DNA of 64,000 bases from IMG/VR virus record IMGVR_UViG_3300046694_000291, positions 1-64,000 of that record, one strand, 5' to 3'. Every line of letters starts with the position of its first letter. Position 1 is the first letter of the stretch. Below the pieces are notes generated by a model. That model was not told the origin of the DNA and did no database searches. It saw nothing but the letters and a program-made list of their open reading frames with translations. The position numbers were made by a program, and so were the translations under genes. The stretch is from a virus. Positions 1-18,497 of this stretch are shown here, piece by piece.

Positions 1-181
1 AGGCGTGCGGGTCCCCGATCGGCCGCAGGTGCGCCGGGTCCACCCAGACCCCGTCCGACTTGTACGCGGGCTTCACCATCAGGTCCCGGCCGCCGACCTC
101 GGCGATCTTGACTGCCATGCCGGTGCGGACGTCCCGGGCGTAACCGCCCCGCTTGAGCCCGTGCGTGTCGAGATCCACCAT
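1..181 (-). CDS. hypothetical protein (runs off window)
   Basis: ATG at 181 with upstream GGAGG; open frame MVDLDTHGLKRGG to the window edge. Confidence 0.55.
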   Translation of the reverse strand, partial: MVDLDTHGLKRGGYARDVRTGMAVKIAEVGGRDLMVKPAYKSDGVWVDPAHLRPIGDPHA

Positions 182-231
182 CTCGGTTCCTCCATCTGTG
201 GTCTGCCCCGGCCGGTCGGCCGAGGGCTGAG

Positions 232-326
232 TGGTCCGGGCGGACTTGAACCGCCTTCTCCGGAGCGAGCTGGGAACCGACCGAACAGCTCTGCCCCGGC
301 GTCCTTCCTGTTGGACGACCTGGACC
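232..326 (-). ncRNA. tRNA-like RNA with elongated anticodon arm
   Basis: Acceptor GGTCC(A)G/CGGACC+A; D arm GTCC-AACAGGAA-GGAC; T arm GGCGG-TTCAAGT-CCGCC; anticodon arm replaced by a 7+6 bp stem with 13-nt loop TTCGGTCGGTTCC. Confidence 0.7.
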
Positions 327-364
327 GTGACCGGGATTGGGCCCCCGGCGGCCGTGAGTGTGCT

Positions 365-643
365 TCAGCGGACGTTGATGCGCAGTAGGCGGGCGAGTGC
401 CCAGGGACCGCCGTGCAGGCCCTCAGGACGGCAGTCAGCCGATCCGAACCTCTCCTCCCCGCGCACCAGGCGCCAGGGGGTCCGGTCGCCCGCCTTCTCG
501 GGGTCGTGGGTAACCGGCTTGCCGTGGTGCTCGTCGTCCGGCCGGGAGACCCGGATGACCGCGCCCTCGGCCTGAGCCGCGAGCAGAGCCCGAGCGGTCC
601 AGGGGCTGCCGAGGCGCTTGTGCCCGAACGTCCCGTCGCCCAT
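365..643 (-). CDS. hypothetical protein
   Basis: MGDGTFGHK start overlaps the stop of the upstream gene. Confidence 0.55.
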   Translation of the reverse strand: MGDGTFGHKRLGSPWTARALLAAQAEGAVIRVSRPDDEHHGKPVTHDPEKAGDRTPWRLVRGEERFGSADCRPEGLHGGPWALARLLRINVR

Positions 644-1056
644 CAGATCGTCTCCTCCCCGATCCACTCCTTGAGCAGGTTGACGAACGCCAGCGGATCG
701 GCGTCGACCTTCTTGCGTAGCGCGCCGCGCAGTGTGTAGGTCCGGATGCCGTGCTCCGACATGAACGCCTCGACCTGCTTCTGCTTGAGCTTGTAGGCCA
801 GCGTCTCCGGGGTGTGAAGCTCCCACGCCTCATAGCTCCACCGCTTGTCCCAGGGCTTCTGGGACCGGATGTCGTACTCCTGACCCCACCAGGGCAGCTT
901 CTCGCCGTCGATGCCCTCCAGGACGACCCGGAACCGGGCCACTCCGATGACCCGGACCGGGATCCTCTGCTCGGGCTGGGTCCGCACGGCCCGCTTGAAC
1001 AGGATCAGCTCGTCACCGACCGAGGGGCGGGTGAACTCGGGCCTGGACTCAGCCAC
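643..1056 (-). CDS. hypothetical phage protein
   Basis: 137-aa ORF with globular composition, coupled to neighbours. Confidence 0.7.
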   Translation of the reverse strand: MAESRPEFTRPSVGDELILFKRAVRTQPEQRIPVRVIGVARFRVVLEGIDGEKLPWWGQEYDIRSQKPWDKRWSYEAWELHTPETLAYKLKQKQVEAFMSEHGIRTYTLRGALRKKVDADPLAFVNLLKEWIGEETI

Positions 1057-1429
1057 GGTCGGCCTCCAGGTCGTCGTTCTCGATGCCGGTCAGCCGGAAC
1101 GGGAGTACCGGGACGCCCTCGGGCTGCATGGCCTCGCTCAACTGACGCAGCCACGCGTACTCCGGCATCTTGGCCCAGTCGTAGTGGACTCCGCCGCCCC
1201 AGGTCGCCTTGCCCTCGGTGCCGTCGGACTTGAGGACGATGCCCGCCATGGAGAGGCCGGTCCAGCCCTCACGGGTCCACTCCCCGCCCTTGAGGCGGTA
1301 CTCGATCGTCACGTGATCAATACGGACCTTCTTGCCGGTGCTGCTGTTGGGGTGCGGCATGACCGGCCCGTCGGTGATGTTGACGGACCGTTGAATCCTG
1401 CCGTGACTGTTGTTGTGGATGAATTCCAT
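1049..1429 (-). CDS. hypothetical phage protein
   Basis: MEFIHNN start preceded by GACCACGGAAGGA. Confidence 0.7.
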   Translation of the reverse strand: MEFIHNNSHGRIQRSVNITDGPVMPHPNSSTGKKVRIDHVTIEYRLKGGEWTREGWTGLSMAGIVLKSDGTEGKATWGGGVHYDWAKMPEYAWLRQLSEAMQPEGVPVLPFRLTGIENDDLEADRG

Positions 1430-1611
1430 GGACGGTTCCTTCCGTGGTCGGTGCTCCGGGTGAGCGCCCCGAGGGGCCACACGTACGTCCGGGAACGGAC
1501 GTGGGGCCGACTGAGGCTCAGTACGGGAGCGGACGCCCCGAGGGCGTCCGCGTGTCGGGCTCGTCCTGCGGCCGGGGCCGGGACAGCTTCTTGATCCGGA
1601 CCTGGCGCACG

Positions 1612-1845
1612 TCAGTTCCAGACCGAGGTGGCGTGCTGCCGGTCGACGGCCTGAGACACGGCGTGGAAGAGCCGGTGGCCCTCGGGGCAGTAGCCGGAGC
1701 AGTCCGGCTCACCCACATCGAACTCCTCGGCGCACGGCTCGCATTCGTGCGTGTGCGACACGAAGCGGTCCAGGGTCACCCGGTAGGGCAGCGAGTCCAG
1801 GTGCTGGACGACCTTGAGAACGAGGGTCACCGGCTTGTGTGGCAT
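1612..1845 (-). CDS. small Cys/His-rich protein
   Basis: MPHKPVT...HTHECEPC...CSGYCPEG. Confidence 0.6.
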   Translation of the reverse strand: MPHKPVTLVLKVVQHLDSLPYRVTLDRFVSHTHECEPCAEEFDVGEPDCSGYCPEGHRLFHAVSQAVDRQHATSVWN

Positions 1846-1850
1846 GGTCC

Positions 1851-2318
1851 TCAGTCCTCCGAGAGGTAGTCGGCCGCGTACGCGGCGTCCTGGAAGGCCC
1901 AGGCGATCCGGGCCGCCTCCTCGTGGGTGACGACCTTGGGGGTGTTCATGTCGTCGCCCTCGGCCACGACCTTGCCCTTGACCGTGATCCGGTAGTTCCA
2001 CCGGCCGGTGTACCGCTTGCCGACCGTACCGCCTCCGGTCTTGCTGATCTCCACCATGACGTGGGTCCCGATCGGACGGCCGACCCACTCGTGCTCGGGG
2101 GTGCCGGTCTCCCGCAGGACGAACAGCTTCTGCGGGGCGAAGTCCTCGACGTAGCAGTCCCCGCCCATGAAGTAGACCCGGACCCACTCGTTCCGGACGT
2201 CCGGCCGGGCCGAGACGACCTGTCCCAGCTCCTCGGCCTCGAAGACGATGTCGCCCGGCTTGAGGGCCTCCCGGGCGTTCTCCAGAGTGAGCTGGACCTC
2301 GGTGAGCTTGCGTCCCAT
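1851..2318 (-). CDS. hypothetical phage protein
   Basis: 155-aa ORF, RBS AGGAG, upstream GACCAAGGAA. Confidence 0.7.
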   Translation of the reverse strand: MGRKLTEVQLTLENAREALKPGDIVFEAEELGQVVSARPDVRNEWVRVYFMGGDCYVEDFAPQKLFVLRETGTPEHEWVGRPIGTHVMVEISKTGGGTVGKRYTGRWNYRITVKGKVVAEGDDMNTPKVVTHEEAARIAWAFQDAAYAADYLSED

Positions 2319-2381
2319 GATCTCTCCTGTTCCTTGGTCTGCTGTTCAACTCGGCCCTACCCCGGTTGGGTTGAGCCTAAG

Positions 2382-2465
2382 CGCCCCCGGCCCGACTCGA
2401 ACGGGCCGTACTCCGACGTGGACCAGATCAGTGGCGACGCACGGCCGAAGCTCTGTAGCGGAGAC
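2382..2465 (-). ncRNA. degenerate tRNA-like element
   Basis: Acceptor GTCTCCG/CGGGGGC and canonical T arm GCCCG-TTCGAGT-CGGGC; D and anticodon arms non-canonical. Confidence 0.5.
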
Positions 2466-2498
2466 GGCCGGATCAAGGCTCCGGCCGGGCCGTGGTGC

Positions 2499-3179
2499 TC
2501 AACGCTCGTTCTGGCGCATCCTGATGCGCTCAGCTTCCATCTCGGCCTCTTCGGCCGCCGAGGTCTCCTGGGACTGCCTCAGGTCGTCCGGGGTGCGGGG
2601 GTGCCAGCCGATGTTGTGCGCGGCACAGTCGGCCTGGGTCAGGGCCCGGCGGGCCACGCGGTGCTCGCCGTAGGTCACCTCGCACTCCTCGGTGGCGTAG
2701 CAGACCTCGTCGCTGTGCGGGCTCCGGAAGGCGTGTCCGTGCTCCGGGAAGGCCGCCCGGACGACGTCCTCGGACCACTCACCGGCGTCCTCCGGGGCCG
2801 GGCGGAGCGTGTCGGTGCCGGGCACCCGCTCCAGCTTCCCGAGCCCGGAGGCGGCAGCGTAGCCCTGGTGCCGTGCCATGTCCGCCGACGTGGTGTCGCC
2901 CCACTCGGCCGGGTCGGGACCGTAGTCCGCACCCCGGTTGATGTCCTGGATCGTCCGGAACTCCTCGGGGGTCCGGCTCTGGGTCGTGATCTCGGCCAGG
3001 ATCTCCTCGGCCGACGCATAGTCGGTCTGCTCGTCCAGCCGGGCGAAGACGCCCGCGTTGTCCAGGGTGTCGATGGCCTGGGCGATACCGGCGTACGTGC
3101 CGATCTTACCGATCCTGGCGATCTCCCGGAGGACGGCCAGCGCCTCGATCACCTCGGGCTCGAACTCGTGCTGTGTCAT
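2499..3179 (-). CDS. hypothetical phage protein
   Basis: 226-aa acidic ORF with start motif and RBS. Confidence 0.7.
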   Translation of the reverse strand: MTQHEFEPEVIEALAVLREIARIGKIGTYAGIAQAIDTLDNAGVFARLDEQTDYASAEEILAEITTQSRTPEEFRTIQDINRGADYGPDPAEWGDTTSADMARHQGYAAASGLGKLERVPGTDTLRPAPEDAGEWSEDVVRAAFPEHGHAFRSPHSDEVCYATEECEVTYGEHRVARRALTQADCAAHNIGWHPRTPDDLRQSQETSAAEEAEMEAERIRMRQNER

Positions 3180-3261
3180 GATCGGTTCCTTCCGTGGTCG
3201 GCCCTGAATGGCCTCACAGGGGGTGCGGGCGGCAGGAGCCGACCGTACCCCCGAGCGGGAC

Positions 3262-3882
3262 TCAGTGCTGGCGCTCGTCCTTCTCCAGGTCGTAGTGGCT
3301 GTTGTTCCGGTCCAGCAGCGCGCGGTACTTGCCGTGCCGGTCCGAGCCGGTGATGTCGTCCGGGTCGAGGGCGATCACGTTGTCCGTGCGGGTCCCGTTC
3401 GGGGCCACCAGCACGTCGTTCAGCCGGGCGCCCTGGAACCCGTCCCGCCCGGCCAGCTTGCGGAGCAGGTAGTAGGCGTGCCGTGTGCCGGTCACCTCGT
3501 ACGTCTTCCAGCCCCGGTCCCAGCGGACCGCGAGGTCCAGGTGGTCCGGCCTGCCGGTCGTGGCGGCCAGGTGGTCCTCCCGGCGCATGCGGGCGAGGGT
3601 GTTGACGTCGGACGGCGCCGGGGCCTCGTCGGCCGTGTAGAGGTCGTCCGTCCGGATCCCGGCCAGGACCGTGGCGGCCAGGGCCTGGGGGATGTTCAGC
3701 CGCTCGGCGAGGTCCTGACGCAGCTCCCGCCGGGTGAACATCTCGTCCCGGGCGTTGCCCTGCTGGCGGGACAGGTTCGCCTGGTTGCGCTTGCGGGCGA
3801 TGAGTTCGAGGTCGCCCGCGTTCAGGGTCACGGTCTGGCCGTTGCTGACGGACACGGTCAGGTCGTCGGTGCGTACGTGCAT
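3262..3882 (-). CDS. hypothetical phage protein
   Basis: 206-aa ORF, upstream GACCAAGGAG. Confidence 0.7.
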   Translation of the reverse strand: MHVRTDDLTVSVSNGQTVTLNAGDLELIARKRNQANLSRQQGNARDEMFTRRELRQDLAERLNIPQALAATVLAGIRTDDLYTADEAPAPSDVNTLARMRREDHLAATTGRPDHLDLAVRWDRGWKTYEVTGTRHAYYLLRKLAGRDGFQGARLNDVLVAPNGTRTDNVIALDPDDITGSDRHGKYRALLDRNNSHYDLEKDERQH

Positions 3883-3969
3883 GGGGTGCTCCTTGGTCGG
3901 TTCCCGGGTGGCCGAGCGGCCGAGCCAGGGTCACGGGCCTCCCGGCCCGCGCCCTCGACTGCTGCTCGA

Positions 3970-4197
3970 TCAGTTGGTGGCGTGACCCGCCAGCTCCTGG
4001 AGGACCATGATGGCCTCGGTGCGGGTCATGTTGGAGGTGTCGTACCCGGGGTCCCCGTGGCCCTCCTTCAGGAGCCGGTACAGCTCCGCGAGCGGCGTGT
4101 CCCGGTGCAGTTCCAGCATCGCGTCCAGCGCCTTGAAGGTCGTCTGGTACGTGCCGTGTCCGGCGATCTCCGCCGTGATGTGGCCAGGCTTGCGCAT
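3970..4197 (-). CDS. hypothetical protein
   Basis: MRKPGHIT start with GAGGA RBS. Confidence 0.6.
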   Translation of the reverse strand: MRKPGHITAEIAGHGTYQTTFKALDAMLELHRDTPLAELYRLLKEGHGDPGYDTSNMTRTEAIMVLQELAGHATN

Positions 4198-4214
4198 GAT
4201 CGGTTCCTCTCGGT

Positions 4215-4577
4215 TCAGCGGGGGATGCGCGGGGACTGCTCGTCCAGCCGCGCCATGGTGCAGTCGGGGCACAGCTCGCTGGACCCCTTCAGCTCGGTGC
4301 CGCACTCGGTGCCGTAGCCCTTGCAGTGGGCGGGCGCTGCGGCCACGGCCACGATCGCGTCGTTCAGGTACGGGAAGGCCTGCTCCCCGTCCGGCGTGTG
4401 GAGCTGCTCGCCGCTCTTGTCGAACGCCTCGTGGCAGCCGAGGTGCGAGGTGGTGTAACCGACGAACCGGCCGTCCCGGTAGACGGCCCGCCGGAGGAAG
4501 CGGTGGCCCCGGCGGACGATCCGGGTGGAGACGTTGGACGGGACAGGGGCTGAGCGCCGGAATGCGGAGCTGCTCAT
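4215..4577 (-). CDS. hypothetical protein with C-terminal Cys cluster
   Basis: MSSSAFRR start after GACCACGGAAGAAGGA; HCKGYGTEC...CPDC. Confidence 0.65.
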   Translation of the reverse strand: MSSSAFRRSAPVPSNVSTRIVRRGHRFLRRAVYRDGRFVGYTTSHLGCHEAFDKSGEQLHTPDGEQAFPYLNDAIVAVAAAPAHCKGYGTECGTELKGSSELCPDCTMARLDEQSPRIPR

Positions 4578-4600
4578 GGTTCCTTCTTCCGTGGTCGGCT

Positions 4601-4654
4601 GGCTCATCAGGACCGGGGTGCCACCCCGGCCGACGGGGTCGCCCCCGTTTCGCC
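4601..4654 (-). ncRNA. hammerhead ribozyme, type II
   Basis: GGC-GAAAC-GGGG(GCGA)CCCC-GTC^-GGCCGGGG(TGGCA)CCCCGGTC-CTGATGA-GCC: complete catalytic core and three stems; predicted cut between 4632 and 4631. Confidence 0.92.
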
Positions 4655-4972
4655 TCAGCTCTGCGGCTTGTGGGCGCGCAGTCCGTTCGCCCCGACCTTG
4701 CCCTCGTAGCCGCACTCGCACTTGCGGTACAGCTTCCGGGGGTTGGCGGGGACCATCTGGCCGGTGCAGTAGACGTCGGCCTTGGAGGCCTGCTCCGCGT
4801 GCGCCTTGATGTCCGAGGGGGTGCAGCAGTCGCTGCACGGGGTCCAGCTCGCGGCCTCGTCGTCGCTCAGGGCGATGGGGTCGCCGGAGGCGATGGCCCG
4901 CTTGGCGTTGGCGCAGGAGTAGCTGGCGTGGCGGTGGTCGCCGTGCGTGGTGCGGTAGAACTTCGCGCTCAT
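4655..4972 (-). CDS. small Cys/His-rich (putative Zn-binding) protein bracketed by hammerheads
   Basis: 105 aa, H-x-x-x-x-C, CSDCC and CEC motifs; AAGGAG RBS. Confidence 0.75.
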   Translation of the reverse strand: MSAKFYRTTHGDHRHASYSCANAKRAIASGDPIALSDDEAASWTPCSDCCTPSDIKAHAEQASKADVYCTGQMVPANPRKLYRKCECGYEGKVGANGLRAHKPQS

Positions 4973-4992
4973 GGTCGGCTCCTTGTGTGCCT

Positions 4993-5045
4993 GGCATCGT
5001 CAGGACCGGGTGGCGCCCGGCCGACGCCCCGAGGGGCGTTTCGCC
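4993..5045 (-). ncRNA. hammerhead ribozyme, type II (one extra U after the core)
   Basis: GGC-GAAAC-GCCC(CTCG)GGGC-GTC^-GGCCGGG(CGCCA)CCCGGTC-CTGACGA-T-GCC; predicted cut between 5023 and 5022. Confidence 0.85.
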
Positions 5046-5426
5046 TTTGGTTGTTCGTTGCGCGCTGGTCGTACGGCGGCTCCGTTGCGTCTTCGACGTC
5101 TGCCGTCTGGTCGTCCGCTCTCGGTACGCTCCCGGGTTCTCTCCGACCGCTGGTGGGTTCCGTGTGTCCCTCACCTGCCGTCGGCCGTCCGCCGTTTTGC
5201 GATCTCGTCGGGTCTGGCCTGCCGTTTTCTTGGGGAGGGTCGGTGCCCTGTCTCCGGCGGCCCCTGGGGCCGATTCGGAGGGTCCGGAGTTCCGGGTCCC
5301 TCCGGGGCCTTACCGCCTGGCCCCTTGTTCTTTAACTAAATCATAGGGCTGGATCAGGCATCTGTATAGCCCCAGGCCAACGCTCTGACCTGGGGCTACA
5401 TAATTAATTTCATGATTCTTTAGGCC

Positions 5427-5645
5427 TCAGTGGCCCGCGATCACCATCTCCTGGACCGGGACCACCAGCTTCACGGGCCCGTCGCAGGCGCGCCCGCTCA
5501 CGTACGCGACCGGGAAGTCCTCGCCCCGGTACACCAGGACCCCGTACTCGGGCACTCCCTCGACCCGGACGACGCGCTGGCCGAGGCGGACGACCTCGCC
5601 CTCCTCCAGGCCGGTGACGGGGGTCAGCCGCAGGTGCATCAGCAT
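5427..5645 (-). CDS. hypothetical protein
   Basis: 72-aa ORF downstream of repeat copy 1, with start motif. Confidence 0.55.
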   Translation of the reverse strand: MLMHLRLTPVTGLEEGEVVRLGQRVVRVEGVPEYGVLVYRGEDFPVAYVSGRACDGPVKLVVPVQEMVIAGH

Positions 5646-5686
5646 GATCTGTTCCTTCTTCCGTGGTCCCCGCCATACGGCGGGCC

Positions 5687-5870
5687 GTATACCTACTCGG
5701 TTACTCTTCGTACGAATTGACCGAACCTACCGGTCCGTAGAGCTACGGATTGGCGAGGTTCCCTTCTGAGGAGCGAACCCGACCGGTCCCTCACACTCCC
5801 ACCACCCACTGCGAGTTCGCAGTCGCCCAGGTCAGGGGGTGGTTTTACTAAATCGGACATTGCGGGCGCC
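5687..5870. repeat. dispersed ~184-bp fixed-spacing element, copy 1
   Basis: Blocks CTACCGGTCCGTAG, GTTCCCTTCTGAGGAGCGAAC, GAGTTCGCAGT, CCCAGGTCAGG, GGTTTTACTAAATC shared with other copies. Confidence 0.9.
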
Positions 5871-5903
5871 GGGGCGGGCCGTATAAAGACCCGCCCCGAA
5901 CGC

Positions 5904-6242
5904 TCAGGCGGACTTGCCGGTCTTGCGCAGAGTGGTGACCTTGCGGCCCGAGCGGACCGCGTCGTGCAGCTTCCCGTTGAGGTGGAACCTGACGGTCTTG
6001 ACGGTCATGGCGCGCTCGACCCGGCCCCCGAGGGCGCCCTTGGCGACCCGGCGGCGGGACGGTTCCAGGGTGAAGGCGTTCGGCAGCTTGACCTTGAACC
6101 CGGCGGCCAGCGCCCGGCCCATGACGTCGATCACTGCCTGGACGGCCTCCCGGGCCGACTCGTCGGTCTGGCCGGTCTCGGCCGCGACCGCCCGGGACAG
6201 GGCGATGAAGTTGAGGTCGTTCTCGATCTTCGCTCGAACCAT
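5904..6242 (-). CDS. HU/IHF-family histone-like DNA-binding protein
   Basis: LSRAVAAETG...AREAVQAVIDVMGRALAAGFKVKLPNAFTL...VRF...KLHDAV matches the HU fold pattern. Confidence 0.8.
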   Translation of the reverse strand: MVRAKIENDLNFIALSRAVAAETGQTDESAREAVQAVIDVMGRALAAGFKVKLPNAFTLEPSRRRVAKGALGGRVERAMTVKTVRFHLNGKLHDAVRSGRKVTTLRKTGKSA

Positions 6243-6244
6243 GA

Positions 6245-6442
6245 TCAGTTCTCCTTGGTCTTCCTGGTCCGGGTCTTGCGGAACCCGAGCGGCCCCGGCA
6301 GATCGACCGAGGTGGTGCTCCGGCGGCGGCCGGTCGTGTGACTGACCGGTCCGACCTTGGTCGTGATGGAGACGCCGGTCTTGCCGAGGTTGAGGTACAG
6401 CCCCGGCATGACCTTGATGCGCTTCCGGAAGGTGAGCGGCAT
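6245..6442 (-). CDS. DUF4236-like small basic protein
   Basis: FRKRIKVMPGLYLNLGKTGVS signature. Confidence 0.75.
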   Translation of the reverse strand: MPLTFRKRIKVMPGLYLNLGKTGVSITTKVGPVSHTTGRRRSTTSVDLPGPLGFRKTRTRKTKEN

Positions 6443-6527
6443 GGCCGTCTCCCTTGATCGGTGAGGCCCAGTTGCCCCGTGGAACGCTCGGACGGACCGG
6501 AACCCGAGCGCTCACCGCGAACTGGAT

Positions 6528-6677
6528 CTACTTCTTGTCCTCGGGCTTCTCGTACGCCGTGCCGCCGTAGAGCTTGCGCTCCGTCTGGCGGCGCTTGCCC
6601 GCGCTCGACCGGCGCTGGTTGCCGGTGGGGCTCTGGCTGGCCGGGTCGTCGTCCGGCCGGGGCTTCTTCCGCGCCAT
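6528..6677 (-). CDS. small basic protein (49 aa, not in ORF track)
   Basis: MARKKPRPDDD...EKPEDKK*, start overlaps upstream stop. Confidence 0.5.
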   Translation of the reverse strand: MARKKPRPDDDPASQSPTGNQRRSSAGKRRQTERKLYGGTAYEKPEDKK

Positions 6678-7228
6678 CAGAATCCGTACCCTTCCCGCCA
6701 GGTCATCGGGTAGCTGTTGCCGTTGTTCCCGGACTCGTCGGCGTACCGGCCGAACGGGGTGGGACGGACCGTGGCCTCCAGCACCGTGTCACCGTCGGCA
6801 ATGCCGTCCAGGATCTCGTCCCAGCCGGTGTCGGTCCGCTCGGGGCCGCTGAAGTAGAAGACGTCGTGGCCGTCGGCCGCGTAGTCGGTGCCCCGGTCGA
6901 TGACGACCTCCAGGGTCCAGTCGACCCGGGACCCGGCGCCCTTGTGCCGGGTGAACTTCTCTTCGGGGACGTCGTGCTCCTCACCCAAGCGGCCGTCCAC
7001 CTCCTCGCGGATGTGGATGCCGTGGGCAGCCGTCACCCCGCACCGGAAGTTGCCCTTGCCGATATGCAGCTCGTTGTCCGGCGCCGGGGGCGTCATGCAC
7101 GTCCAGGAGCAGTCCTCGGCCGCCTTGGCGGCCAGGGCCCGCGCCTTCTCCAGGCTGTAGAAGGGCTTCTCGCCGGGGTTCATGATGAAGCCCGAGCCCT
7201 CGTCGCTCACCCAGTAGGTGGTCCTCAT
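6677..7228 (-). CDS. hypothetical phage protein
   Basis: MRTTYWVSD start, acidic globular ORF. Confidence 0.65.
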   Translation of the reverse strand: MRTTYWVSDEGSGFIMNPGEKPFYSLEKARALAAKAAEDCSWTCMTPPAPDNELHIGKGNFRCGVTAAHGIHIREEVDGRLGEEHDVPEEKFTRHKGAGSRVDWTLEVVIDRGTDYAADGHDVFYFSGPERTDTGWDEILDGIADGDTVLEATVRPTPFGRYADESGNNGNSYPMTWREGYGF

Positions 7229-7233
7229 GCTGT

Positions 7234-7572
7234 TCAGCTCCCCTCGGGCGCCTCGGCGCCCTCCACGGTCACGCTCTCGACGGCGGTGTTGTGCGTGCTC
7301 CACCGGCCGTCGCTGTCCTCGGTCACGAGGTACAGGCCGGTCAGGCACTCCGGGTCGGACTTGACGGCCGCCGCCCACAGCAGGTCGATGGTCTGGACCG
7401 CGAGGTCACGCTGGAAGCCGATCACCCGGGCGACCGAGCCCTGCCAGAAGTCCTGGCGCTGGACCGAGCCGTCCTCCTCGACGAAGTACGGGTACGGCTG
7501 CTTGGTGAACTCCTGGCCGTCGATGATCTGGTCGACGTAGGACGCGGGCTGCACCCGCAGGACCCTGCTCAT
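7234..7572 (-). CDS. hypothetical phage protein
   Basis: 112 aa, AGGAGG RBS. Confidence 0.7.
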   Translation of the reverse strand: MSRVLRVQPASYVDQIIDGQEFTKQPYPYFVEEDGSVQRQDFWQGSVARVIGFQRDLAVQTIDLLWAAAVKSDPECLTGLYLVTEDSDGRWSTHNTAVESVTVEGAEAPEGS

Positions 7573-7627
7573 GTGTCCTCCTGGACATCGGGGACGGGCC
7601 CGGCCGACCGGCCGGGCCCGAAGCGGA

Positions 7628-8509
7628 TCAGGCGTAGATCTTGACGTACCTGTGGCCCGAGGCGAACGCCTCAGCCAGCGTGTCCTGGACGCTCTCCGGG
7701 GCCTCCAGGGCCGCCGGGGTGTCCGGGTGGGTGTCGTAGAGGTGCCAGGACGCCGACTCCTCCACGGCCCGGCGAGGGGCCGGGAGCGCCACGACCCGGA
7801 GCAGCTCGCACTCCGCGTCCCGGACCGACCCGCTCGGGGTCAGGTGGGCGAACTCCGCGTCCAGCTCGATCACGACGCTCCAGCCCGAGGCGCTGAAGGC
7901 CCGGCTGCCCGGGACGACCGTGCCGCTGTAGGCCTTGCAGACGTTGTGGACGCGGCCGGTCATGCCCTCCTCGGCCTGGAACGCGGCGGCGAGCGCGGCC
8001 TTGGTCGGCCGGACGGGGGCGGTCGCGCGGTGCAGGGTCGCGTGGGAGATCCGGTCGGCCCGGAAGCTGCGGGTGTCGTCGGCCTTGCGGTCGAACGCCC
8101 GGACCACGACCTTCCCGGCCTTGGTCAGGCGGACCGAGGTGACCTCTACCTCGCGGAGGCTCACGTCACCCTCGGGCTTCACGTACCGGAGCTTCATGGT
8201 CCGGCCGGTGCGGGCGGCGGTGTGGTAGCGGGCGATGTCCGCCTCCTCGATCACGAACACCGAGGCGAGCTGGCCGTCGTTCAGCAGCGCGACCACGTAC
8301 AGTCCGGCCTCGCGGTACTCGAACACCTGCGGGTAGCCGAACTCCAGGACGTACTCGGTGCGGCGGGCGGCGGCCTCGTGCTGGTCGGCGTAGGCGTCGA
8401 TGACCCAGATGCTCTCCCGGACCTCGTCCTGCGTCCACTCGTGGGACGCGGCCTGGTCGTTCGCGAAGTTCACGGTGGTGATGATCTGGCGTCCGGTGTT
8501 CTCTCGCAT
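7628..8509 (-). CDS. WYL-domain protein
   Basis: MKLRYVKPEGDVSLREVE...RAFDRKADDTRSFRADRI WYL signature. Confidence 0.8.
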   Translation of the reverse strand: MRENTGRQIITTVNFANDQAASHEWTQDEVRESIWVIDAYADQHEAAARRTEYVLEFGYPQVFEYREAGLYVVALLNDGQLASVFVIEEADIARYHTAARTGRTMKLRYVKPEGDVSLREVEVTSVRLTKAGKVVVRAFDRKADDTRSFRADRISHATLHRATAPVRPTKAALAAAFQAEEGMTGRVHNVCKAYSGTVVPGSRAFSASGWSVVIELDAEFAHLTPSGSVRDAECELLRVVALPAPRRAVEESASWHLYDTHPDTPAALEAPESVQDTLAEAFASGHRYVKIYA

Positions 8510-8623
8510 GATCGGCTCCTGCTGGTCTGGTGGTCTGTGTTCGCCTTACGAGGTACAACCTACGCTGAGCAGGGCCGATCTAAACACCCCTTGGACAAGG
8601 GAGTTGAGACCGGCCCCTAATTG

Positions 8624-9553
8624 TTACAATTCCAGCGCCCGCCGGATCCCCTCCTCCAGGGTCACGGTCGGTGCGTAGATCGTCAGCATCCGGTCCGGGT
8701 CACCGACCCGGTACGCCACACCCTGCGGCATCTCTGGCATGAAGAGGACGCCCGGCAGGCCCCCGAGGTAGGTCCGGGGACGGAGCAGGACGGTCTCCCG
8801 GATCATCATCCGGACCAGGGTGCTGAACGGGGTCGGCTCACCGGTGCAGAGGTTCACCGGCGCCGCCGTCCCGTCCTCCGCGACCGCGAGCGTCCCGGCG
8901 ACGATGTCGTCCACGTGGATCCAGTCCCGGACACAGTCCCCGCACCAGACCGTGACCGGGTCCTCCCCGGCCTTGACCCGGTCGAGGATGGCCCGGAAGG
9001 GGTAGCTGGAGTCCTGGTCCTCGCCGTATCCGGAGAACGGCCGGACCACAGTGACCGGCACACCGGTCTTCCGCAGCCGGTCGGCCAGCAGCTCGCCGGT
9101 GACCTTGCTCCAGCCGTAGACCTCGTCCGGCTGACGGATCACATGGGGCAGGTCGATGTGATCTTCCATCAGACCTGTCGGTAGCCACCCGGGCCCCTGC
9201 TGAAGGTTGACCGGGTACGCGGCCGAGCTGCTGAAGTAGATCACCCGGCCCGGCCGCGCGACCGCCGCCCAGCGGAACATCTCCGCGTCGATGGACAGCG
9301 ACTCGGCCGTGGCCAGGGGGTCGTTCTCGATCGTCTCCCGGCCGCCGACCACGGCCGCGCAGTGGACCACGAGGTCGAAGTGCGGCCGGTAGGGGTTGCC
9401 GAGGTTGCGGATCTGGTGCCGGAAGTAGTCCCGGCAGTCCTGGGCGCTGGTCGCCTTGACGTCCAGGCCGAGGACGTCGTACCCCCGGCGCTTCAGCTCC
9501 GCCGAGAAGTGACGGCCGAGGAACCCCCGGTCGCCGGTGACGAGCGCCCTCAT
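8624..9553 (-). CDS. NAD-dependent nucleotide-sugar epimerase/dehydratase
   Basis: TGDRGFLG, HCAA, SSSAAY, YGWSK (YxxxK), VRPFSGYG, VRDWIHVDD. Confidence 0.92.
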   Translation of the reverse strand: MRALVTGDRGFLGRHFSAELKRRGYDVLGLDVKATSAQDCRDYFRHQIRNLGNPYRPHFDLVVHCAAVVGGRETIENDPLATAESLSIDAEMFRWAAVARPGRVIYFSSSAAYPVNLQQGPGWLPTGLMEDHIDLPHVIRQPDEVYGWSKVTGELLADRLRKTGVPVTVVRPFSGYGEDQDSSYPFRAILDRVKAGEDPVTVWCGDCVRDWIHVDDIVAGTLAVAEDGTAAPVNLCTGEPTPFSTLVRMMIRETVLLRPRTYLGGLPGVLFMPEMPQGVAYRVGDPDRMLTIYAPTVTLEEGIRRALEL

Positions 9554-9711
9554 CCCCGGACTCCCCGGAACTTGGGCTTCAGACCCTGGAGCACGCGTGC
9601 TGCGTCCTCCAGGCCCTGCCGGTAGCCCTGCTCCTCGTCGTCGGACCCGTCGGACTCGCCCAGCCGGGCCTTCAGCTTCTCGATCGTCTCCAGGTCCTCG
9701 TCGCTCACCAT
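9550..9711 (-). CDS. small hypothetical protein
   Basis: MVSDEDLE..., overlaps both neighbours. Confidence 0.5.
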   Translation of the reverse strand: MVSDEDLETIEKLKARLGESDGSDDEEQGYRQGLEDAARVLQGLKPKFRGVRG

Positions 9712-10301
9712 CGGTCGGTCCTCCCGCTCGTGTTGCCACCGTGCCAGTTCCAGACCCAGGTCCGGCGGTTCAGGTGCTCGATCTTCGCACCCTCCCCGAC
9801 CATGCGCTCCCAGGTCCCCCAGTCGTCGCAGGGGTTGTCCGGAGGTCCCTTCGGGGTGAAGCCGCCGACGTCCCACACCAGCTCGCTCCGCACCAGGACC
9901 GTGATCGGGATGTAGTTCTGGTACCGCAACGCCTCCTCGTTGAAGGGCTGGCCCTCGAACTGCGGGAACGGGTCCCAGCCCTGTGGGACGGTGAACCACG
10001 GGTACACCATGTCGGCCCCGGTCGCCTCCGCGTGCTCCATCAGCAGCCGGACGTGGTCGGTGTTCCACTGGTCGTCATCGTCGAGGAAGGCCATCCACTC
10101 CGTGTTGACGGCCGAGGCGGCGTGGGTGCGGTTGCGGGCCGACCCGGCGCGCTCGTGGTCGATGCGGATGCTGATCGCCTCGACCGGCCGCTCCTGCTGG
10201 AGGACCGAGTCGACGGCCCGGTGCAGGTGGGTCTGGACCCGGGGCGGGATGGCCGGGATGACCGCCGTGACCCCGGGCCGCAGGTGCCGCATACGGTTCA
10301 T
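9705..10301 (-). CDS. glycosyltransferase family 2
   Basis: AVDSVLQQ, ARNR, WMAFLDDDD, DDW motifs. Confidence 0.88.
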   Translation of the reverse strand: MNRMRHLRPGVTAVIPAIPPRVQTHLHRAVDSVLQQERPVEAISIRIDHERAGSARNRTHAASAVNTEWMAFLDDDDQWNTDHVRLLMEHAEATGADMVYPWFTVPQGWDPFPQFEGQPFNEEALRYQNYIPITVLVRSELVWDVGGFTPKGPPDNPCDDWGTWERMVGEGAKIEHLNRRTWVWNWHGGNTSGRTDRW

Positions 10302-10942
10302 CGATGGACCGCCATCCAGAGCTGGTAGGTGTACGGGTTGTGCATGTGCCGTGTCGACTCCGGCACCAGCAGGTGGACCTCCAGCGGGGACCAGCCGTTC
10401 AGCCAGAGCATCTCGTGGATGTCCACCTGCCCCCAGCCCCAGTAGTGCTCCTCGTTGCCGACCGAGGCGGGCTCGTCCAGCGGGGTGGACAGGAACAGGT
10501 ACCGGCTGATCCCGGCGAGCCTCCGCAGCAGGCCGTCCGGGTCGGTCACGTGCTCCAGGGTCTCGCTCAGCACGAACAGGTCGACCGGCAGCACCTCGGC
10601 CGGGAAGGACCCGAAGTCGTCCAGGCTCTCCGGCAGCGGGCCTGCCTTCATGACCCGGACGTGCTTCCGGAGGGGGTACTCTCCCCGGGCCCCGATCAGG
10701 TCGCCGACGTAGGCCTGCTCCAGAAGGTCGTCCAGGCCCTTGAGGATGGCCGCGTCTCCGCAGGACAGGTCGGCCGCCGTCTTGATGTTGTTGCCGTACC
10801 GGCGAATCAGCTCCACCGAGGCGGCCACACGCTCCACGTGGTCCGGCCAGACCTCGTGCCGGTACCCCCTCGGGTACCTGCGCTCGTAGAACGCGATCTC
10901 CTCGGCCTCGGTCCGGAACGGCCGGAGCTGGTTACGCGCCAT
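10298..10942 (-). CDS. class I SAM-dependent methyltransferase
   Basis: DLSCGDA motif I; SETLEHVTDP. Confidence 0.8.
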   Translation of the reverse strand: MARNQLRPFRTEAEEIAFYERRYPRGYRHEVWPDHVERVAASVELIRRYGNNIKTAADLSCGDAAILKGLDDLLEQAYVGDLIGARGEYPLRKHVRVMKAGPLPESLDDFGSFPAEVLPVDLFVLSETLEHVTDPDGLLRRLAGISRYLFLSTPLDEPASVGNEEHYWGWGQVDIHEMLWLNGWSPLEVHLLVPESTRHMHNPYTYQLWMAVHR

Positions 10943-11642
10943 CGCCGTACTCCTCCCGCACCAGCCGGAGGGCGGACTCGAAGCCGGTCCCGTCCCGGTA
11001 GGCGGTCCAGGCGTCCCGGTCGTGCCGGTCGGCCTCGGAGTCGTTGACCACCCGGTACCGCTCGTCCCACTCGGCCTTCCCGGCCACGGGGTGCAGATGC
11101 TCGATGATCACGTCGTCCCGGTAGACCAGGCCGCCGGTCCGCTCCCCCAGCTCCTTCCAGAAGTTGTCCAGGTAGAGGTGACGCATGACCTGCGGCGCCA
11201 TGCACCCGAGCGTCCGGATCATCCGGCTCTGCATGAAGACCGCCGTCGGCAGGTTGGCGCCCTGGAGCAGGTCGTTCCCGTAGACGATGCGGGGGCTGAG
11301 ACTGTCCAGCTCCCGGATCATCTCCGTGTCCCAGCCGTGCGTCCGGGGCAGGTGGTCGTCCCCCATGAAGCCCACATACTCGTACACCGAGGCACACCGG
11401 CGCGCAGCGAAGTTCAGCGGGTAGTTGAGCCCCCGGCCACCCCCCATGTCGGCGTAGACCAGCAGCCGGGGAATCAGGCCCGCACCCAACAGGCCCCGGT
11501 ACTCCGGCAGCTCGGGGTCATCCTGGTCGGCCACGAACAGCAGCGTGGTTCGCCCCAGGACGGTCTCTTCGAACGCCTCGGCCAGCCGGGCCGCGTTCTG
11601 CGGCCGTCCCCGGGTGGGGACGACCACGACAAGTTCGCTCAC
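10932..11642 (-). CDS. glycosyltransferase family 2
   Basis: VVVPTRGR, GFMGDDH, EHLHP. Confidence 0.82.
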   Translation of the reverse strand: MSELVVVVPTRGRPQNAARLAEAFEETVLGRTTLLFVADQDDPELPEYRGLLGAGLIPRLLVYADMGGGRGLNYPLNFAARRCASVYEYVGFMGDDHLPRTHGWDTEMIRELDSLSPRIVYGNDLLQGANLPTAVFMQSRMIRTLGCMAPQVMRHLYLDNFWKELGERTGGLVYRDDVIIEHLHPVAGKAEWDERYRVVNDSEADRHDRDAWTAYRDGTGFESALRLVREEYGDGA

Positions 11643-12046
11643 CGCTTCCTCCTCGGAGCAGCCCGCTCACGGGTCAGCTCCATGTTGATCTGGGATTCCC
11701 TGGTCGTCCTGATCAGGTGCGCGATCGCCGTCGCCGCGATGGCGATGCCGATCAGCCCGATCAGGAGTGCCGTCATCACGACGGCGAGGATCATGGCACA
11801 GATCGTGCCGATGATCAGAGCCCCGAGCGCCAGCCACATGTACGGCAGCGCCTGCTGCGCGAGCGTCGGCTTGGGCGGCGGAAGCGGCGGGGGCGGCGGC
11901 GCGTAGTGGTGGTGCTCGTGGAATTGGATCACCTGCGGTGCCCCCGGGCCTGACTCGGCTCCGGGGAGCGAGCTGGTCGGGTTCATCCGCAGGTACTCCA
12001 CGATGGCCGAGAGCCGGTCCGTGCTGTTCGTGTCTTCCGTGGTCAT
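11639..12046 (-). CDS. SpdD-like plasmid spread membrane protein
   Basis: His/Pro-rich linker then two TM helices, downstream of traB as in Streptomyces plasmids. Confidence 0.55.
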   Translation of the reverse strand: MTTEDTNSTDRLSAIVEYLRMNPTSSLPGAESGPGAPQVIQFHEHHHYAPPPPPLPPPKPTLAQQALPYMWLALGALIIGTICAMILAVVMTALLIGLIGIAIAATAIAHLIRTTRESQINMELTRERAAPRRKR

Positions 12047-12055
12047 GATCTCTCC

Positions 12056-12250
12056 TTACTTGATGCGGCGCCCGACCAGCAGCAGTGCTCCGCCGAGGAC
12101 TCCTCCGCACACGATGACGAACAGGGCCGCTCCGAGCGTCTGTGCGACGGTGAGCTTGCTGTCCGAGTCGGGGCCGACACCCGAGGCCACCATGAAGCCC
12201 GCGAGCAACAGCGCCGTCCACAGGACAGCCCTTCCGATCTTGCTGATCAT
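12056..12250 (-). CDS. small two-TM membrane protein (Spd-like)
   Basis: Two hydrophobic helices; AAGGAG RBS. Confidence 0.6.
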   Translation of the reverse strand: MISKIGRAVLWTALLLAGFMVASGVGPDSDSKLTVAQTLGAALFVIVCGGVLGGALLLVGRRIK

Positions 12251-12272
12251 CTCCTTCTCGCTTCCGTGAGGG

Positions 12273-12389
12273 GCCCTGACGCGTCAGGGCTGCGTGGCCA
12301 GAGAATGTCCCCAGGCCGGGACGGTCGTCAGGACCTTGATCAGACGTCTGATCAGCTCCTGACGGCCATCCTGATCAGGGGCTGATCAG
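12273..12389. repeat. candidate clt (cis-acting locus of transfer)
   Basis: Four TGATCA(G) copies at 12337-12389 plus palindrome GCCCTGACGCGTCAGGGC, immediately 3' of traB. Confidence 0.5.
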
Positions 12390-14377: not shown

Positions 14378-14378
14378 C

Positions 14379-14888: not shown

Positions 14889-14907
14889 CGTTCCTGGTTC
14901 CTCTCGA

Positions 14908-15762: not shown

Positions 15763-15901
15763 GGTCCTGTCCTTCCGTGGTCCGATATTCCTAAATCGTG
15801 TAGGGAGGGTATGTCCCCGGGCCTGTCCCGTCAAACCCCCAGGACATGACGAAGGACCGGGGACATGTCCCCGGTCCTGTCACCTGCGGTGTCCTCGTCG
15901 G

Positions 15902-16219: not shown

Positions 16220-16249
16220 GATCAGTGCTCCTTGGTCGTGTGCTCGGGT

Positions 16250-16433
16250 GTATACCTACCCGGTTACCGTCCGTGTCATTTAGCTAAACCTACCTGTCCG
16301 TAGAGCTACGGATTGGCGAGGTTCCCTTCTGAGGAGCGAACCCGACCGGCCCCTCACACTCCCAGGGCCCAGGTTCCGTTCGCAGTCGCCCAGGTCAGGA
16401 AGTGGTTTTACTAAATCAGACATTGCGGGCGCC
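16250..16433. repeat. dispersed element, copy 2
   Basis: Near-identical to 5687-5870, same length and orientation. Confidence 0.9.
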
Positions 16434-16460
16434 GTATGCCTATACGGCGATCACGTATAT

Positions 16461-18449: not shown

Positions 18450-18497
18450 GGGCTTTCTCCGTTCGTTCCGATTTACCTTAACCGGGATACCCCGGTT

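What the first reader, a model, noticed from the sequence alone, without database searches (positions are those of the whole stretch)
4601..5045. Two type II hammerhead ribozymes bracket a single small ORF: a self-excising, possibly circularising mRNA cassette
Seen: on the minus strand both elements carry the full core GAAAC / GUC / CUGANGA with three stems. Their stem III sequences differ but both pair. Loop I and the 3' tail covary: loop TGGCA with tail AGCC in one, loop CGCCA with tail AGGC in the other. The ORF stop abuts the second ribozyme. Established: type II hammerheads use a loop I-tail pseudoknot, and cleavage leaves 5'-OH and 2',3'-cyclic phosphate ends, which RtcB-type ligases join. 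Inference: double cleavage releases a 391-nt RNA (5022 to 4632) with the RBS and whole 105-aa Cys/His ORF. Ligation would give a coding circle with a rebuilt hammerhead at the junction.
Basis: partly seen in the sequence, partly recalled or inferred. Interest (0 to 1): 0.88.

Follow-up and report, generated by a model that had tools for sequence, protein, structure and literature searches.

The report
Hammerhead ribozymes flanking a phage gene
Two genuine self-cutting hammerhead RNAs sit on either side of a small zinc-protein gene in a soil Streptomyces-type phage, but this is one ordinary example of a known phage habit of placing a ribozyme in front of each early gene, not a special circular-RNA device.

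Summary
Rfam finds exactly two matches in the window, both type II hammerheads on the minus strand: 5046-4985 (43.9 bits) and 4655-4593 (51.2 bits), against a cut-off of 37.

The "cassette" reading is only partly supported. In 87 related hammerheads from phage contigs, 79 lie just upstream of a ribosome-binding site and start codon, at a median of 18 nt. So each ribozyme belongs to the gene after it. Related phages carry 1 to 24 such ribozymes at varying junctions. The first hammerhead follows a leader that is conserved in cultured Streptomyces phages such as Rooney and Wentworth. The one reachable homologue of the ORF has no hammerheads.

Nothing specific supports circularisation:
- The phage has no RtcB.
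- Neighbouring ribozymes show no selected compatibility.
- No RNA data cover the site.

Perreault et al. 2011 already described hammerheads flanking single prophage genes. They raised the circle idea and did not detect circles. This scan has noted phage hammerheads on much other DNA.

Verdict: a new member of a known kind, of modest interest.

The parts
5340..5368 (-). Promoter-like site TATACA-17 nt-TATGAT in the AT-rich gap after the upstream gene. This is the likely start of the operon's transcript.
   Evidence: 1 site found against 0.1 expected in shuffles. It is a consensus match only.
5047..5339 (-). Non-coding leader of about 290 nt. Its core, 5259-5104, is conserved in related phages and in Streptomyces phages Rooney, Wentworth, Gibson, Dryad and phiRKBJ001. 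Cleavage by HH1 would release it.
   Evidence: No credible ORF. Identity is 93.5% to G001 over 154 nt, against 81% and 76% for the flanking genes. Searches show the wider conservation. Contigs from four RNA-labelled libraries match 5112-5259 at 90-99%, which does not prove transcription.
4985..5046 (-). Type II hammerhead HH1. Stem II GGC (5045-5043) pairs with GCC (4995-4993). GAAAC, then a 6-bp stem III with loop CUCG, then GUC 5025-5023. The cut is at 5023/5022. Stem I is 5022-5016 with 5010-5004. CUGACGA is 5003-4997. There is an extra U at 4996. The 3-bp pseudoknot joins 5014-5012 to 4991-4989.
   Evidence: Rfam RF02276, 43.9 bits, cut-off 37. Sequence. Found by the descriptor.
4979..4984 (-). 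Shine-Dalgarno AAGGAG of the 105-aa ORF, 4 nt after the pseudoknot tail (GGC, 4991-4989).
   Evidence: Sequence. The same placement is seen in 79 of 87 relatives.
4655..4972 (-). Gene for a 105-aa Cys/His-rich protein (P0001). Invariant residues are H13, H15, C20, C46, C49, C50, C69, C85, C87 and H101, so it probably binds two zinc ions. Function unknown.
   Evidence: GC3 0.98. 13 homologues at 51-76% identity. No Pfam or PHROG family and no PDB relative. A weak Atlas lead links residues 1-55 to Ada-type zinc domains, TM 0.35-0.40.
4593..4655 (-). Type II hammerhead HH2. It starts at the last base of the ORF's TGA. Stem III is 6 bp with a GCGA loop. GUC is 4634-4632 and the cut is at 4632/4631. 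Stem I is 4631-4624 with 4618-4611. CUGAUGA is 4610-4604. Stem II is GCC 4603-4601. The 4-bp pseudoknot joins 4623-4620 to 4599-4596.
   Evidence: Rfam RF02276, 51.2 bits. Sequence.
4215..4577 (-). Next gene (120 aa, with a Cys-rich C-terminus). Its RBS leader GACCACGGAAGAAGGAAC (4596-4579) overlaps, at 4596, the end of the HH2 tail. HH2 is this gene's 5'-UTR ribozyme.
   Evidence: Translation. HH2 stem II ends 23 nt before the start codon. No Pfam or PHROG family.

Best explanation
The two hammerheads are the first two punctuation marks of a leftward early or accessory operon of an 84-kb, high-GC phage. The phage has direct terminal repeats and comes from root and rhizosphere metagenomes. Its leader is shared with Streptomyces phages.

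Proposed sequence of events:
1. Transcription starts near 5335 and produces a conserved leader of about 290 nt.
2. HH1 folds as it is made and cuts at 5023/5022, separating the leader from the first message.
3. HH2 cuts at 4632/4631, separating the 105-aa gene from the next gene.

Each ribozyme belongs functionally to the gene downstream of it. A type II hammerhead leaves stem I, the core and the tail on the downstream product. That message therefore begins with a 5'-OH and a stable hairpin a fixed 20-23 nt (measured from the end of stem II) before its start codon. The upstream message ends in the stem III hairpin with a 2',3'-cyclic phosphate.

The likely benefit is a defined, insulated 5' untranslated region for every small gene, independent of the host. 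Message stability and translation are then uncoupled from the neighbouring genes.

Shown here: the ribozyme identity, the geometry, and the conserved placement before RBSs across many phages. Inferred: cleavage in vivo, co-transcription, and the stability and insulation benefit.
For: - Rfam scores are above the cut-off and the cores are complete.
- A scan for the shared stem I motif found 37 IMG/VR stretches.
- My descriptor finds 87 type II hammerheads (80 unique) in the loci used. They form same-strand arrays of 7-9 in L012, L024, L025 and L034. Record G005 has 24 Rfam hits above the cut-off within 7.6 kb.
- 79 of 87 have a Shine-Dalgarno motif, a start codon and an ORF of at least 30 aa within 80 nt. 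71 of these lie at 13-29 nt, with a median of 18.
- Among 9 records carrying the leader core, 7 have a hammerhead 190-310 nt after it, and most have further ones downstream.
- Cultured phages Rooney and Wentworth show the same layout. In Rooney, annotated gene 90 lies between two hammerhead-like elements.
- Relatives place hammerheads at different junctions of the same operon.
- The 3000-7000 scan found no terminator-like site on the minus strand.
- Literature: Perreault 2011 showed that all ribozymes of three triple arrangements cleave in about 2-kb transcripts in vitro, and one set cleaves in E. coli (PMC3088659, passages). Three type II hammerheads near phage-like genes cleave in Desulfovibrio vulgaris (PMC8782182, passages).
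Against: - No cleavage or transcript data exist for this phage. The RNA-labelled contigs cover only 5112-5259 of the leader and may be DNA or come from relatives.
- HH1 has only a 3-bp pseudoknot and an extra U. Perreault 2011 reports that trimming a 6-bp pseudoknot to 4 bp slowed their test ribozyme about 20-fold (passage). HH1 may therefore be slow.
- The Rooney and Wentworth elements score below Rfam's cut-off (18.7-29.5 bits) and were not listed by cmscan at E<=0.1.
- 8 of 87 hammerheads lack a nearby start by my criteria.
- The stability and insulation benefit rests on general knowledge of 5'-end-dependent RNases and of engineered ribozyme insulators. Both are recalled and not tested here.
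- The 2019 review still calls the bacterial role undefined (PMC6765202, passage).
- The 87 exclude the hammerheads of G001-G004, because I dropped loci L040-L059, L014, L026, L029, L033 and L038 as duplicates.
Confidence: 0.62

Rival explanations
1. Circular mRNA. After both cuts, the 391-nt RNA is sealed into a translatable circle, either by a host RtcB-type ligase or by the reverse hammerhead reaction. A chimeric hammerhead then sits at the junction.
For: - The ends have the right chemistry (established for hammerheads).
- Both ribozymes share a GGC/GCC stem II, so a chimeric ribozyme could form.
- The predicted fold of the excised RNA pairs its first and last 17 or so nucleotides. The duplex energy is -24.8 kcal/mol, second strongest of 60 adjacent pairs.
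- Ribozyme-flanked RNAs with paired ends are sealed by RtcB in engineered systems (recalled, not checked here).
Against: - The phage has no RtcB, while the control search detected it in 10 of 14 genomes.
- The fold is no more stable than shuffles (z -0.58).
- The duplex energy falls only in the top 8% of 7569 ordered pairs.
- Across arrays, adjacent pairs pair no better than others: -15.4 against -17.2 and -16.7 kcal/mol.
- Stem II compatibility is generic, and 5 of 60 neighbouring pairs are incompatible.
- Relatives have a single hammerhead, and the ORF's homologue has none.
- A rebuilt active hammerhead would cut the circle open again.
- Only 3 bp of stem II would hold the two halves together across about 300 nt.
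- Perreault 2011 looked for circular or spliced products and found none (passage).
- An earlier circle reading in this scan fell on checking (e1-2575356).
Confidence: 0.08
2. Recombination boundaries or selfish modules. The hammerhead plus RBS leader is mainly a short conserved patch at gene borders. It lets phages swap small early genes, or it spreads by itself. Cleavage would be tolerated rather than selected for.
For: - Gene content between the leader and the conserved 226-aa gene differs in every relative, while junction elements recur.
- The G003 hammerhead combines the outer flanks of HH2 with the loop and tail of HH1.
- The 18-nt tail/RBS string after HH2 recurs exactly before another gene at 5668-5651 and with one mismatch at 27089-27072. 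There are 5 matches with up to 3 mismatches against 0.04 expected.
- Neighbouring hammerheads in arrays are near-duplicates.
Against: - Cores are intact, and stems and the pseudoknot covary. This shows selection on the fold, not only on the DNA.
- Placement relative to start codons is tight.
- This reading is compatible with the best explanation rather than exclusive of it.
Confidence: 0.15
3. Translation-gated cleavage. HH2 starts at the ORF's stop codon, so a terminating ribosome would cover stem II, GAAAC and part of stem III. Cutting, and so the fate of the downstream message, would depend on translation of the upstream gene.
For: - The TGA at 4657-4655 abuts HH2.
- Of 29 hammerheads where I could place an upstream high-GC3 ORF stop, 9 have it within 1 nt of the ribozyme's first base.
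- TGA fused to GCGAAAC recurs in many relatives.
Against: - HH1 follows a non-coding leader, so this cannot apply to it.
- In 20 of the 29 cases the stop lies 2-27 nt upstream.
- Hammerheads usually cut while being transcribed. Abutment may simply reflect tight packing.
Confidence: 0.1

Closest known systems
Clustered hammerhead ribozymes flanking single genes or short gene blocks in prophages (Perreault et al. 2011, PLoS Comput Biol, PMC3088659; passages read)
   Same: - Several same-strand hammerheads, including type II with the loop I to tail pseudoknot, lie a few hundred nt apart around individual phage genes of varying identity.
- The proposed role is cutting long phage transcripts into single-gene messages.
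- The circle or splice idea was already raised there.
   Different: - This case is in a free 84-kb soil phage related at the leader level to Streptomyces phages.
- The first ribozyme follows a conserved non-coding leader.
- Related contigs here reach 24 ribozymes in 7.6 kb, against triplets in the passages I read.
- I could not see that paper's supplementary lists.
Rfam Hammerhead_II, RF02276
   Same: Both copies match all 66 model positions above the gathering score. They have the core, a hairpin-closed stem I and stem III, an open stem II and a 3' tail pseudoknot.
   Different: HH1 uses a GCC/GGC pseudoknot instead of the consensus UGGY/RCCA, and has an extra U after the CUGANGA box. This insertion is shared by 20 of 87 relatives.
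RNase III processing sites between the early genes of coliphage T7 (recalled from textbooks, not checked here)
   Same: Intercistronic structured RNA elements cut a long early transcript into single-gene messages that end in a protective hairpin.
   Different: T7 depends on a host enzyme. Here the RNA cuts itself and leaves a 5'-OH and a cyclic phosphate.
Hammerhead-bearing circular RNAs: viroids, satellite RNAs, retrozymes (PMC6765202, passages read; PMC4918200, PMC7761336, listing only)
   Same: Two hammerhead cuts release a unit-length RNA whose ends a tRNA ligase or RtcB-type enzyme can join.
   Different: - Those are type I or III ribozymes in replicating or retrotransposing, largely non-coding RNAs with rod-like folds that bring the ends together.
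- Here there are type II ribozymes in a DNA phage operon.
- There is no repeat-unit structure, no evidence of circles and no ligase gene.
5'-UTR self-cleaving ribozymes needed for translation initiation in RNA mycoviruses (Lopez-Galiano et al. 2026, PMC13725137; abstract read)
   Same: The ribozyme sits in the 5' UTR directly before an ORF, and cleavage creates the translated message's 5' end.
   Different: That system is eukaryotic cap-independent translation in RNA viruses. Here there is an ordinary bacterial Shine-Dalgarno site, so no initiation role need be invoked.

Membership tests
Type II hammerhead ribozyme (RF02276) | Covariance-model score at or above Rfam's gathering score (37 bits) | tested here: met
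   51.2 and 43.9 bits, over the full model 1-66. The result is the same in the whole record.
Type II hammerhead ribozyme (RF02276) | Conserved core: CUGANGA, GAAA, the A15.1-U16.1 pair and a cleavable H17 | tested here: met
   HH1 has CUGACGA, GAAAC and GUC. HH2 has CUGAUGA, GAAAC and GUC. HH1 has one inserted U after the A of CUGACGA.
Type II hammerhead ribozyme (RF02276) | Topology: stems I and III closed by loops, stem II open | tested here: met
   Stem III is 6 bp in both. Stem I is 7 bp (HH1) and 8-9 bp (HH2). Stem II is 3 bp, GGC/GCC.
Type II hammerhead ribozyme (RF02276) | Pseudoknot between loop I and the tail 3' of stem II (4 or more bp in most members, per Perreault 2011) | tested here: met
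   HH2 has 4 bp including one G.U. HH1 has only 3 bp. Across the family, 93.3% of cells are paired over 4 pairs and every pair shows double changes. The shuffle and slide controls are clean, as is the partner-swap test.
Type II hammerhead ribozyme (RF02276) | Self-cleavage at the predicted site | not testable with these tools
   No transcript ends are available. The RNA-library contigs do not cover the ribozymes.
Clustered phage/prophage hammerheads (Perreault 2011) | Two or more same-strand hammerheads within a few kb, flanking a gene or short gene block in phage DNA | tested here: met
   The two copies are 391 nt apart (cut to cut) around one ORF, in a virus record with direct terminal repeats that CheckV rates 100% complete.
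Clustered phage/prophage hammerheads (Perreault 2011) | Both lie on one transcript | tested here: inconclusive
   Both are on the same strand with tight gene spacing. There is one promoter-like site upstream and no minus-strand terminator-like site in 3000-7000. These are consensus scans only.
Ribozyme-derived circular RNA (viroid-like, retrozyme, engineered ribozyme/RtcB circles) | Detected back-joined (circular) RNA | not testable with these tools
   Only contigs of four RNA-labelled runs could be laid. None covers 4593-5046, and no joints were reported.
Ribozyme-derived circular RNA (viroid-like, retrozyme, engineered ribozyme/RtcB circles) | A ligase able to join 5'-OH and 2',3'-cyclic phosphate ends is available | tested here: inconclusive
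   No RtcB (PF01139) is found in the 84-kb phage. The host genome is unknown and was not searched.
Ribozyme-derived circular RNA (viroid-like, retrozyme, engineered ribozyme/RtcB circles) | Selected structure that brings the two ends together | tested here: inconclusive
   The termini pair in the predicted fold, but z is -0.58. The duplex energy is in the top 8% of all pairs. Adjacent pairs are not enriched across 60 cases.

The most novel reading that the evidence does not exclude
In infected Streptomyces-type hosts that carry RtcB, the 391-nt RNA released by the two hammerheads has its ends presented by the predicted imperfect terminal helix of about 17 bp. It is sealed into a covalently closed, RBS-bearing circular mRNA for the 105-aa zinc protein. 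The circle is exonuclease-proof and outlasts the rest of the early transcript. This would be the first natural coding circular mRNA made by a DNA phage.
Probability: 0.08. Interest if true: 0.85.

Novelty: new member of a known kind. Interest (0 to 1): 0.3.

Why it matters
As described, the finding adds one more example to a pattern published in 2011, so it changes little by itself.

The comparative work is more useful. It shows that in this group of high-GC phages a type II hammerhead is a standard 5'-UTR part placed about 18 nt before start codons. It occurs in arrays of up to 24. It follows a conserved leader RNA. The same layout, unannotated and below Rfam's cut-off, is present in cultured, freely available Streptomyces phages such as Rooney and Wentworth.

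That gives a tractable system for the long-open question of what bacterial and phage hammerheads are for. Candidate roles are message insulation and stability, leader release, and circles. A relative that carries a different repeated RNA element at the same junctions hints that other, unclassified processing elements can stand in for the ribozyme.

Tried and rejected
**Contexts of the ORF's 13 homologues.** I used the search for related loci with alignment A1 instead. Viral contigs and genome contigs gave nothing, and metagenome contigs gave one locus, L060. So 1 of 13 homologue contexts could be seen. A single-protein scan of viral contigs and tblastn against phages also found nothing.

**Phage relatives.** Megablast of 3000-7000 against phages found no match. 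tblastn of the 663-aa ORF against phages found no match, so the phage has no close cultured relative in that collection.

**ORF function.**
- A PDB profile search gave only E 0.74.
- The Atlas gave a weak Ada-zinc-domain lead, TM 0.35-0.40, with its own model at pLDDT 0.58.
- Pfam on all 14 members gave no shared family.

**RNA evidence.** One run search and one lay were made. Four RNA-labelled runs hold only 5112-5259 of the leader, as short contigs at 90-99% identity. None covers the ribozymes or the ORF, there are no joints, and no ends can be read from contigs. This says nothing on cleavage, circles or expression. The DNA holders are root, rhizosphere and soil metagenomes, and three may be the source sample.

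**Circle-specific tests that gave no signal.** These were chimeric stem II compatibility, end-to-end duplex energy of neighbours, and the fold of the excised RNA.

**Motif X.** This is the element that replaces the hammerheads in L060. No Rfam family matches it. A strict pattern found nothing in IMG/VR. A looser one found 11 stretches that lack the motif's other parts and look like chance matches. The resemblances to hairpin, HDV-like and hammerhead cores that I considered by eye did not hold. It is left unclassified.

**tRNA-like junction elements.** Another note on this genome proposes them. ARAGORN finds 0 tRNAs in the window, and Rfam finds no tRNA match at E<=5 in 150-4000.

**Literature.**
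- "hammerhead" with "Streptomyces phage": 2 papers hold both terms. Judged from title and abstract start only, neither appears to be about ribozymes.
- I found no paper describing hammerhead arrays in actinophages, within that library only.
Full report
**What is at the site.** The window is the first 64 kb of an 84,106-bp IMG/VR virus record with direct terminal repeats, rated 100% complete by CheckV. It is about 69% G+C. At gathering thresholds Rfam finds exactly two matches in the window, both Hammerhead_II on the minus strand: 4655-4593 (51.2 bits) and 5046-4985 (43.9 bits), against a cut-off of 37. A sensitive scan of 1-20000 adds nothing, and the whole record has only these two.
- Both have GAAAC and 6-bp stem III hairpins that differ by three compensated pairs.
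- Cleavage after GUC falls at 5023/5022 and 4632/4631.
- Both have stem I hairpins, CUGANGA boxes and a 3-bp GGC/GCC stem II.
- The 391-nt interval carries AAGGAG (4984-4979) and the 105-aa ORF 4972..4655, whose TGA abuts the second ribozyme.

The ORF is a real gene. Its GC3 is 0.98. It has 13 homologues at 51-76% identity, with ten invariant Cys/His residues. No Pfam, PHROG or PDB relative was found.

**The pseudoknot.** HH2 can pair UGGC of loop I with GCCG of the tail, giving 4 bp with one wobble. HH1 pairs only GCC with GGC, giving 3 bp, and carries an extra U after the core box. To judge the covariation claim on more than two sequences I took three steps:
1. I scanned IMG/VR for the stem I motif the two copies share, which gave 37 stretches.
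2. I wrote a descriptor for type II hammerheads. It finds 87 instances, 80 of them unique, in the loci used.
3. I aligned the 3' halves of 73 of the 80. The seven from Rooney and Wentworth were left out because they lack this tail type.

On that alignment, stem I plus a 4-pair pseudoknot is 93.8% paired, against 70.0% in shuffles (0 of 500 reach it) and at most 56% when slid. The pseudoknot helix alone is 93.3% paired, with double changes at every pair. Swapping tails between ribozymes lowers the mean pairing from 3.74 to 3.43 (0 of 1000 reach it). Distinct covarying classes are visible: GCCA/UGGU, GCGA/UCGC, ACCC/GGGU and UGCCCA/UGGGCA. The shuffles ignore relatedness, so they overstate significance, but the slide control does not.

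**What the arrangement is.** The descriptor shows that these ribozymes come in same-strand arrays in many high-GC phage contigs. L012, L024, L025 and L034 have 7-9 each. One 57-kb record has 24 Rfam matches above the cut-off within 7.6 kb. In 79 of 87 cases a Shine-Dalgarno motif, a start codon and an ORF of at least 30 aa follow within 80 nt. In 71 of those the start lies 13-29 nt after stem II, with a median of 18. In the window the distances are 20 nt (HH1 to the 105-aa gene) and 23 nt (HH2 to the next, 120-aa gene). The repeating unit is therefore "ribozyme + RBS + gene". The "bracket" is two such units in a row.

**Surroundings and relatives.** Upstream of HH1 lies a gene-free stretch of about 380 nt. 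It holds a promoter-like site at 5368-5340 and a leader whose core, 5259-5104, is better conserved than the neighbouring genes. The core is 93.5% identical to record G001, against 81% and 76% for the flanking genes. The leader core also occurs in Streptomyces phages Rooney, Wentworth, Gibson, Dryad and phiRKBJ001 and in further IMG/VR contigs. Of 9 records with the core, 7 have a hammerhead 190-310 nt after its start. L060 has none. L077, of which only 927 nt are held, has none.

In Rooney and Wentworth the descriptor finds 4 and 3 type II hammerhead-like elements at unannotated intergenic gaps. Annotated gene 90 of Rooney sits between two of them. Rfam scores these elements at only 18.7-29.5 bits, below the cut-off, and cmscan at E<=0.1 missed them, so they are candidates.

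The closer relatives G001, G002 and G003 (76-79 kb) share the flanking 233-aa and 226-aa genes. Each has one hammerhead, and the positions differ:
- In G001 it follows a 29-codon ORF after the leader.
- In G003 it lies directly before the 226-aa gene.

None of these three has the 105-aa gene. The only homologue of that gene whose context I could reach is L060 (58% identity, same leader and flanking genes). It has no hammerhead at E<=0.1. There the gene is flanked by two copies, of three in the locus, of another element of about 80 nt. That element starts at the preceding stop codon and ends before the next RBS.

**Mechanism.** The best-supported reading is self-processing of a polycistronic early transcript. 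HH1 removes the leader and HH2 separates the first two genes. In type II ribozymes the downstream product keeps stem I and the core. Each message therefore starts with a 5'-OH and a hairpin at a fixed short distance from its start codon. The upstream product ends with the stem III hairpin and a cyclic phosphate. That these ends protect or insulate messages rests on general knowledge, not on data here. Published work supports activity of such clusters:
- In vitro cleavage of three triple arrangements, and in vivo cleavage of one in E. coli (PMC3088659, passages).
- In vivo cleavage of three type II hammerheads in Desulfovibrio (PMC8782182, passages).

The 2019 review still treats the biological role as open (PMC6765202, passage).

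**The circle idea.** It is chemically sound and geometrically possible, but nothing here singles this pair out:
- The phage lacks RtcB. The host is unknown.
- A chimeric stem II forms in 55 of 60 neighbouring pairs but also in 541 of 622 non-neighbours. Where stem II types differ within an array, the neighbours are incompatible, in 5 cases.
- The excised RNA's ends pair in the predicted fold, but the fold is no better than shuffles (z -0.58).
- The -24.8 kcal/mol end duplex is in the top 8% of 7569 pairs.
- Neighbours in general pair no better than random: -15.4 against -16.7 kcal/mol.
- RNA-labelled libraries cover only part of the leader.
- Perreault et al. proposed spliced or circular products and did not detect them.

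I put the circle at about 0.08.

**Comparison, novelty and score.** The elements are members of Rfam Hammerhead_II. The arrangement is a member of the clustered phage hammerheads of Perreault 2011. It works like T7's RNase III punctuation (recalled) but cuts itself. It is not shown to belong with ribozyme-derived circular RNAs. This scan has already logged phage hammerheads widely: 2514 notes in at least 1462 genomes. These include a leader RNA ending in a hammerhead in another Streptomyces phage and, on this same genome, notes on the punctuated operon and the leader.

The finding is a new member of a known kind. I score it 0.3. The modest value comes from the comparative picture and the cultured test system, not from the pair itself.

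Noticed in passing
L063 (G005:C1:9000-19000; IMG/VR record of 57,338 bp): Rfam finds 24 type II hammerheads above the cut-off (45-72 bits) on one strand within 7.6 kb, spaced about 160-780 nt start to start, with very small ORFs between them. My descriptor finds 21 of them. This is far denser than the triplets in the passages of Perreault 2011 that I read.
   Followed up: partly
L060 about 2911-3000, 3312-3395 and 4680-4735 (+): In the one reachable relative that carries the 105-aa gene, the junctions hold three copies of an unclassified element ("motif X") instead of hammerheads. The preceding stop codon lies inside CUGAUC, which can pair with a downstream GAUCAG. Between them lie conserved internal-loop sequences and a GC hairpin whose sequence differs between copies but still pairs. 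No Rfam family matches it, and no copies were found in IMG/VR. It could be a nuclease site or another kind of processing element.
   Followed up: partly
window 5104-5259 (-); also L042 1193-1346, L060 2484-2630, L061 3501-3623, L062 3501-3541: The core of the non-coding leader before HH1 is more conserved than the neighbouring genes. It is shared with cultured Streptomyces phages. It appears in short contigs of four RNA-labelled libraries (soil twice, wastewater and one coded organism) at 90-99% identity. It has no Rfam match. It may be a discrete RNA released by the hammerhead.
   Followed up: partly
L061 (Streptomyces phage Rooney) 3709-3764, 4742-4807, 5123-5170, 6106-6150; L062 (Wentworth) 3698-3754, 4715-4780, 6031-6075: These are unannotated type II hammerhead-like elements in intergenic gaps of cultured phages. 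Each lies 13-17 nt before a start codon, with a GAC/GUC or GGAC/GUCC stem II and no consensus tail. Rfam scores are below the cut-off (18.7-29.5 bits for those it lists).
   Followed up: partly
window 4579-4596, 5651-5668, 27072-27089 (-): The 18-nt string that forms the HH2 tail and the next gene's RBS recurs exactly before the 72-aa gene at 5645, and with one mismatch at 27072-27089, in both cases without a hammerhead. There are 5 matches with up to 3 mismatches, against 0.04 expected. It is a shared translation-start leader, possibly a recombination patch.
   Followed up: no
window 2455-2504 (-); L042 2982-3027, L043 1039-1089, L044 919-955, L060 5018-5061: A 37-51-nt stretch spanning the 3' end of the 226-aa gene and the start of the gap after it is conserved at 86-91% across relatives. 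Another note on this genome calls the neighbouring stretch tRNA-like. ARAGORN and Rfam find no tRNA in the window. L043 does carry a true tRNA (48.4 bits), and L060 carries a tRNA-like 3' piece scored under the tmRNA model (33.3 bits, below the cut-off).
   Followed up: partly
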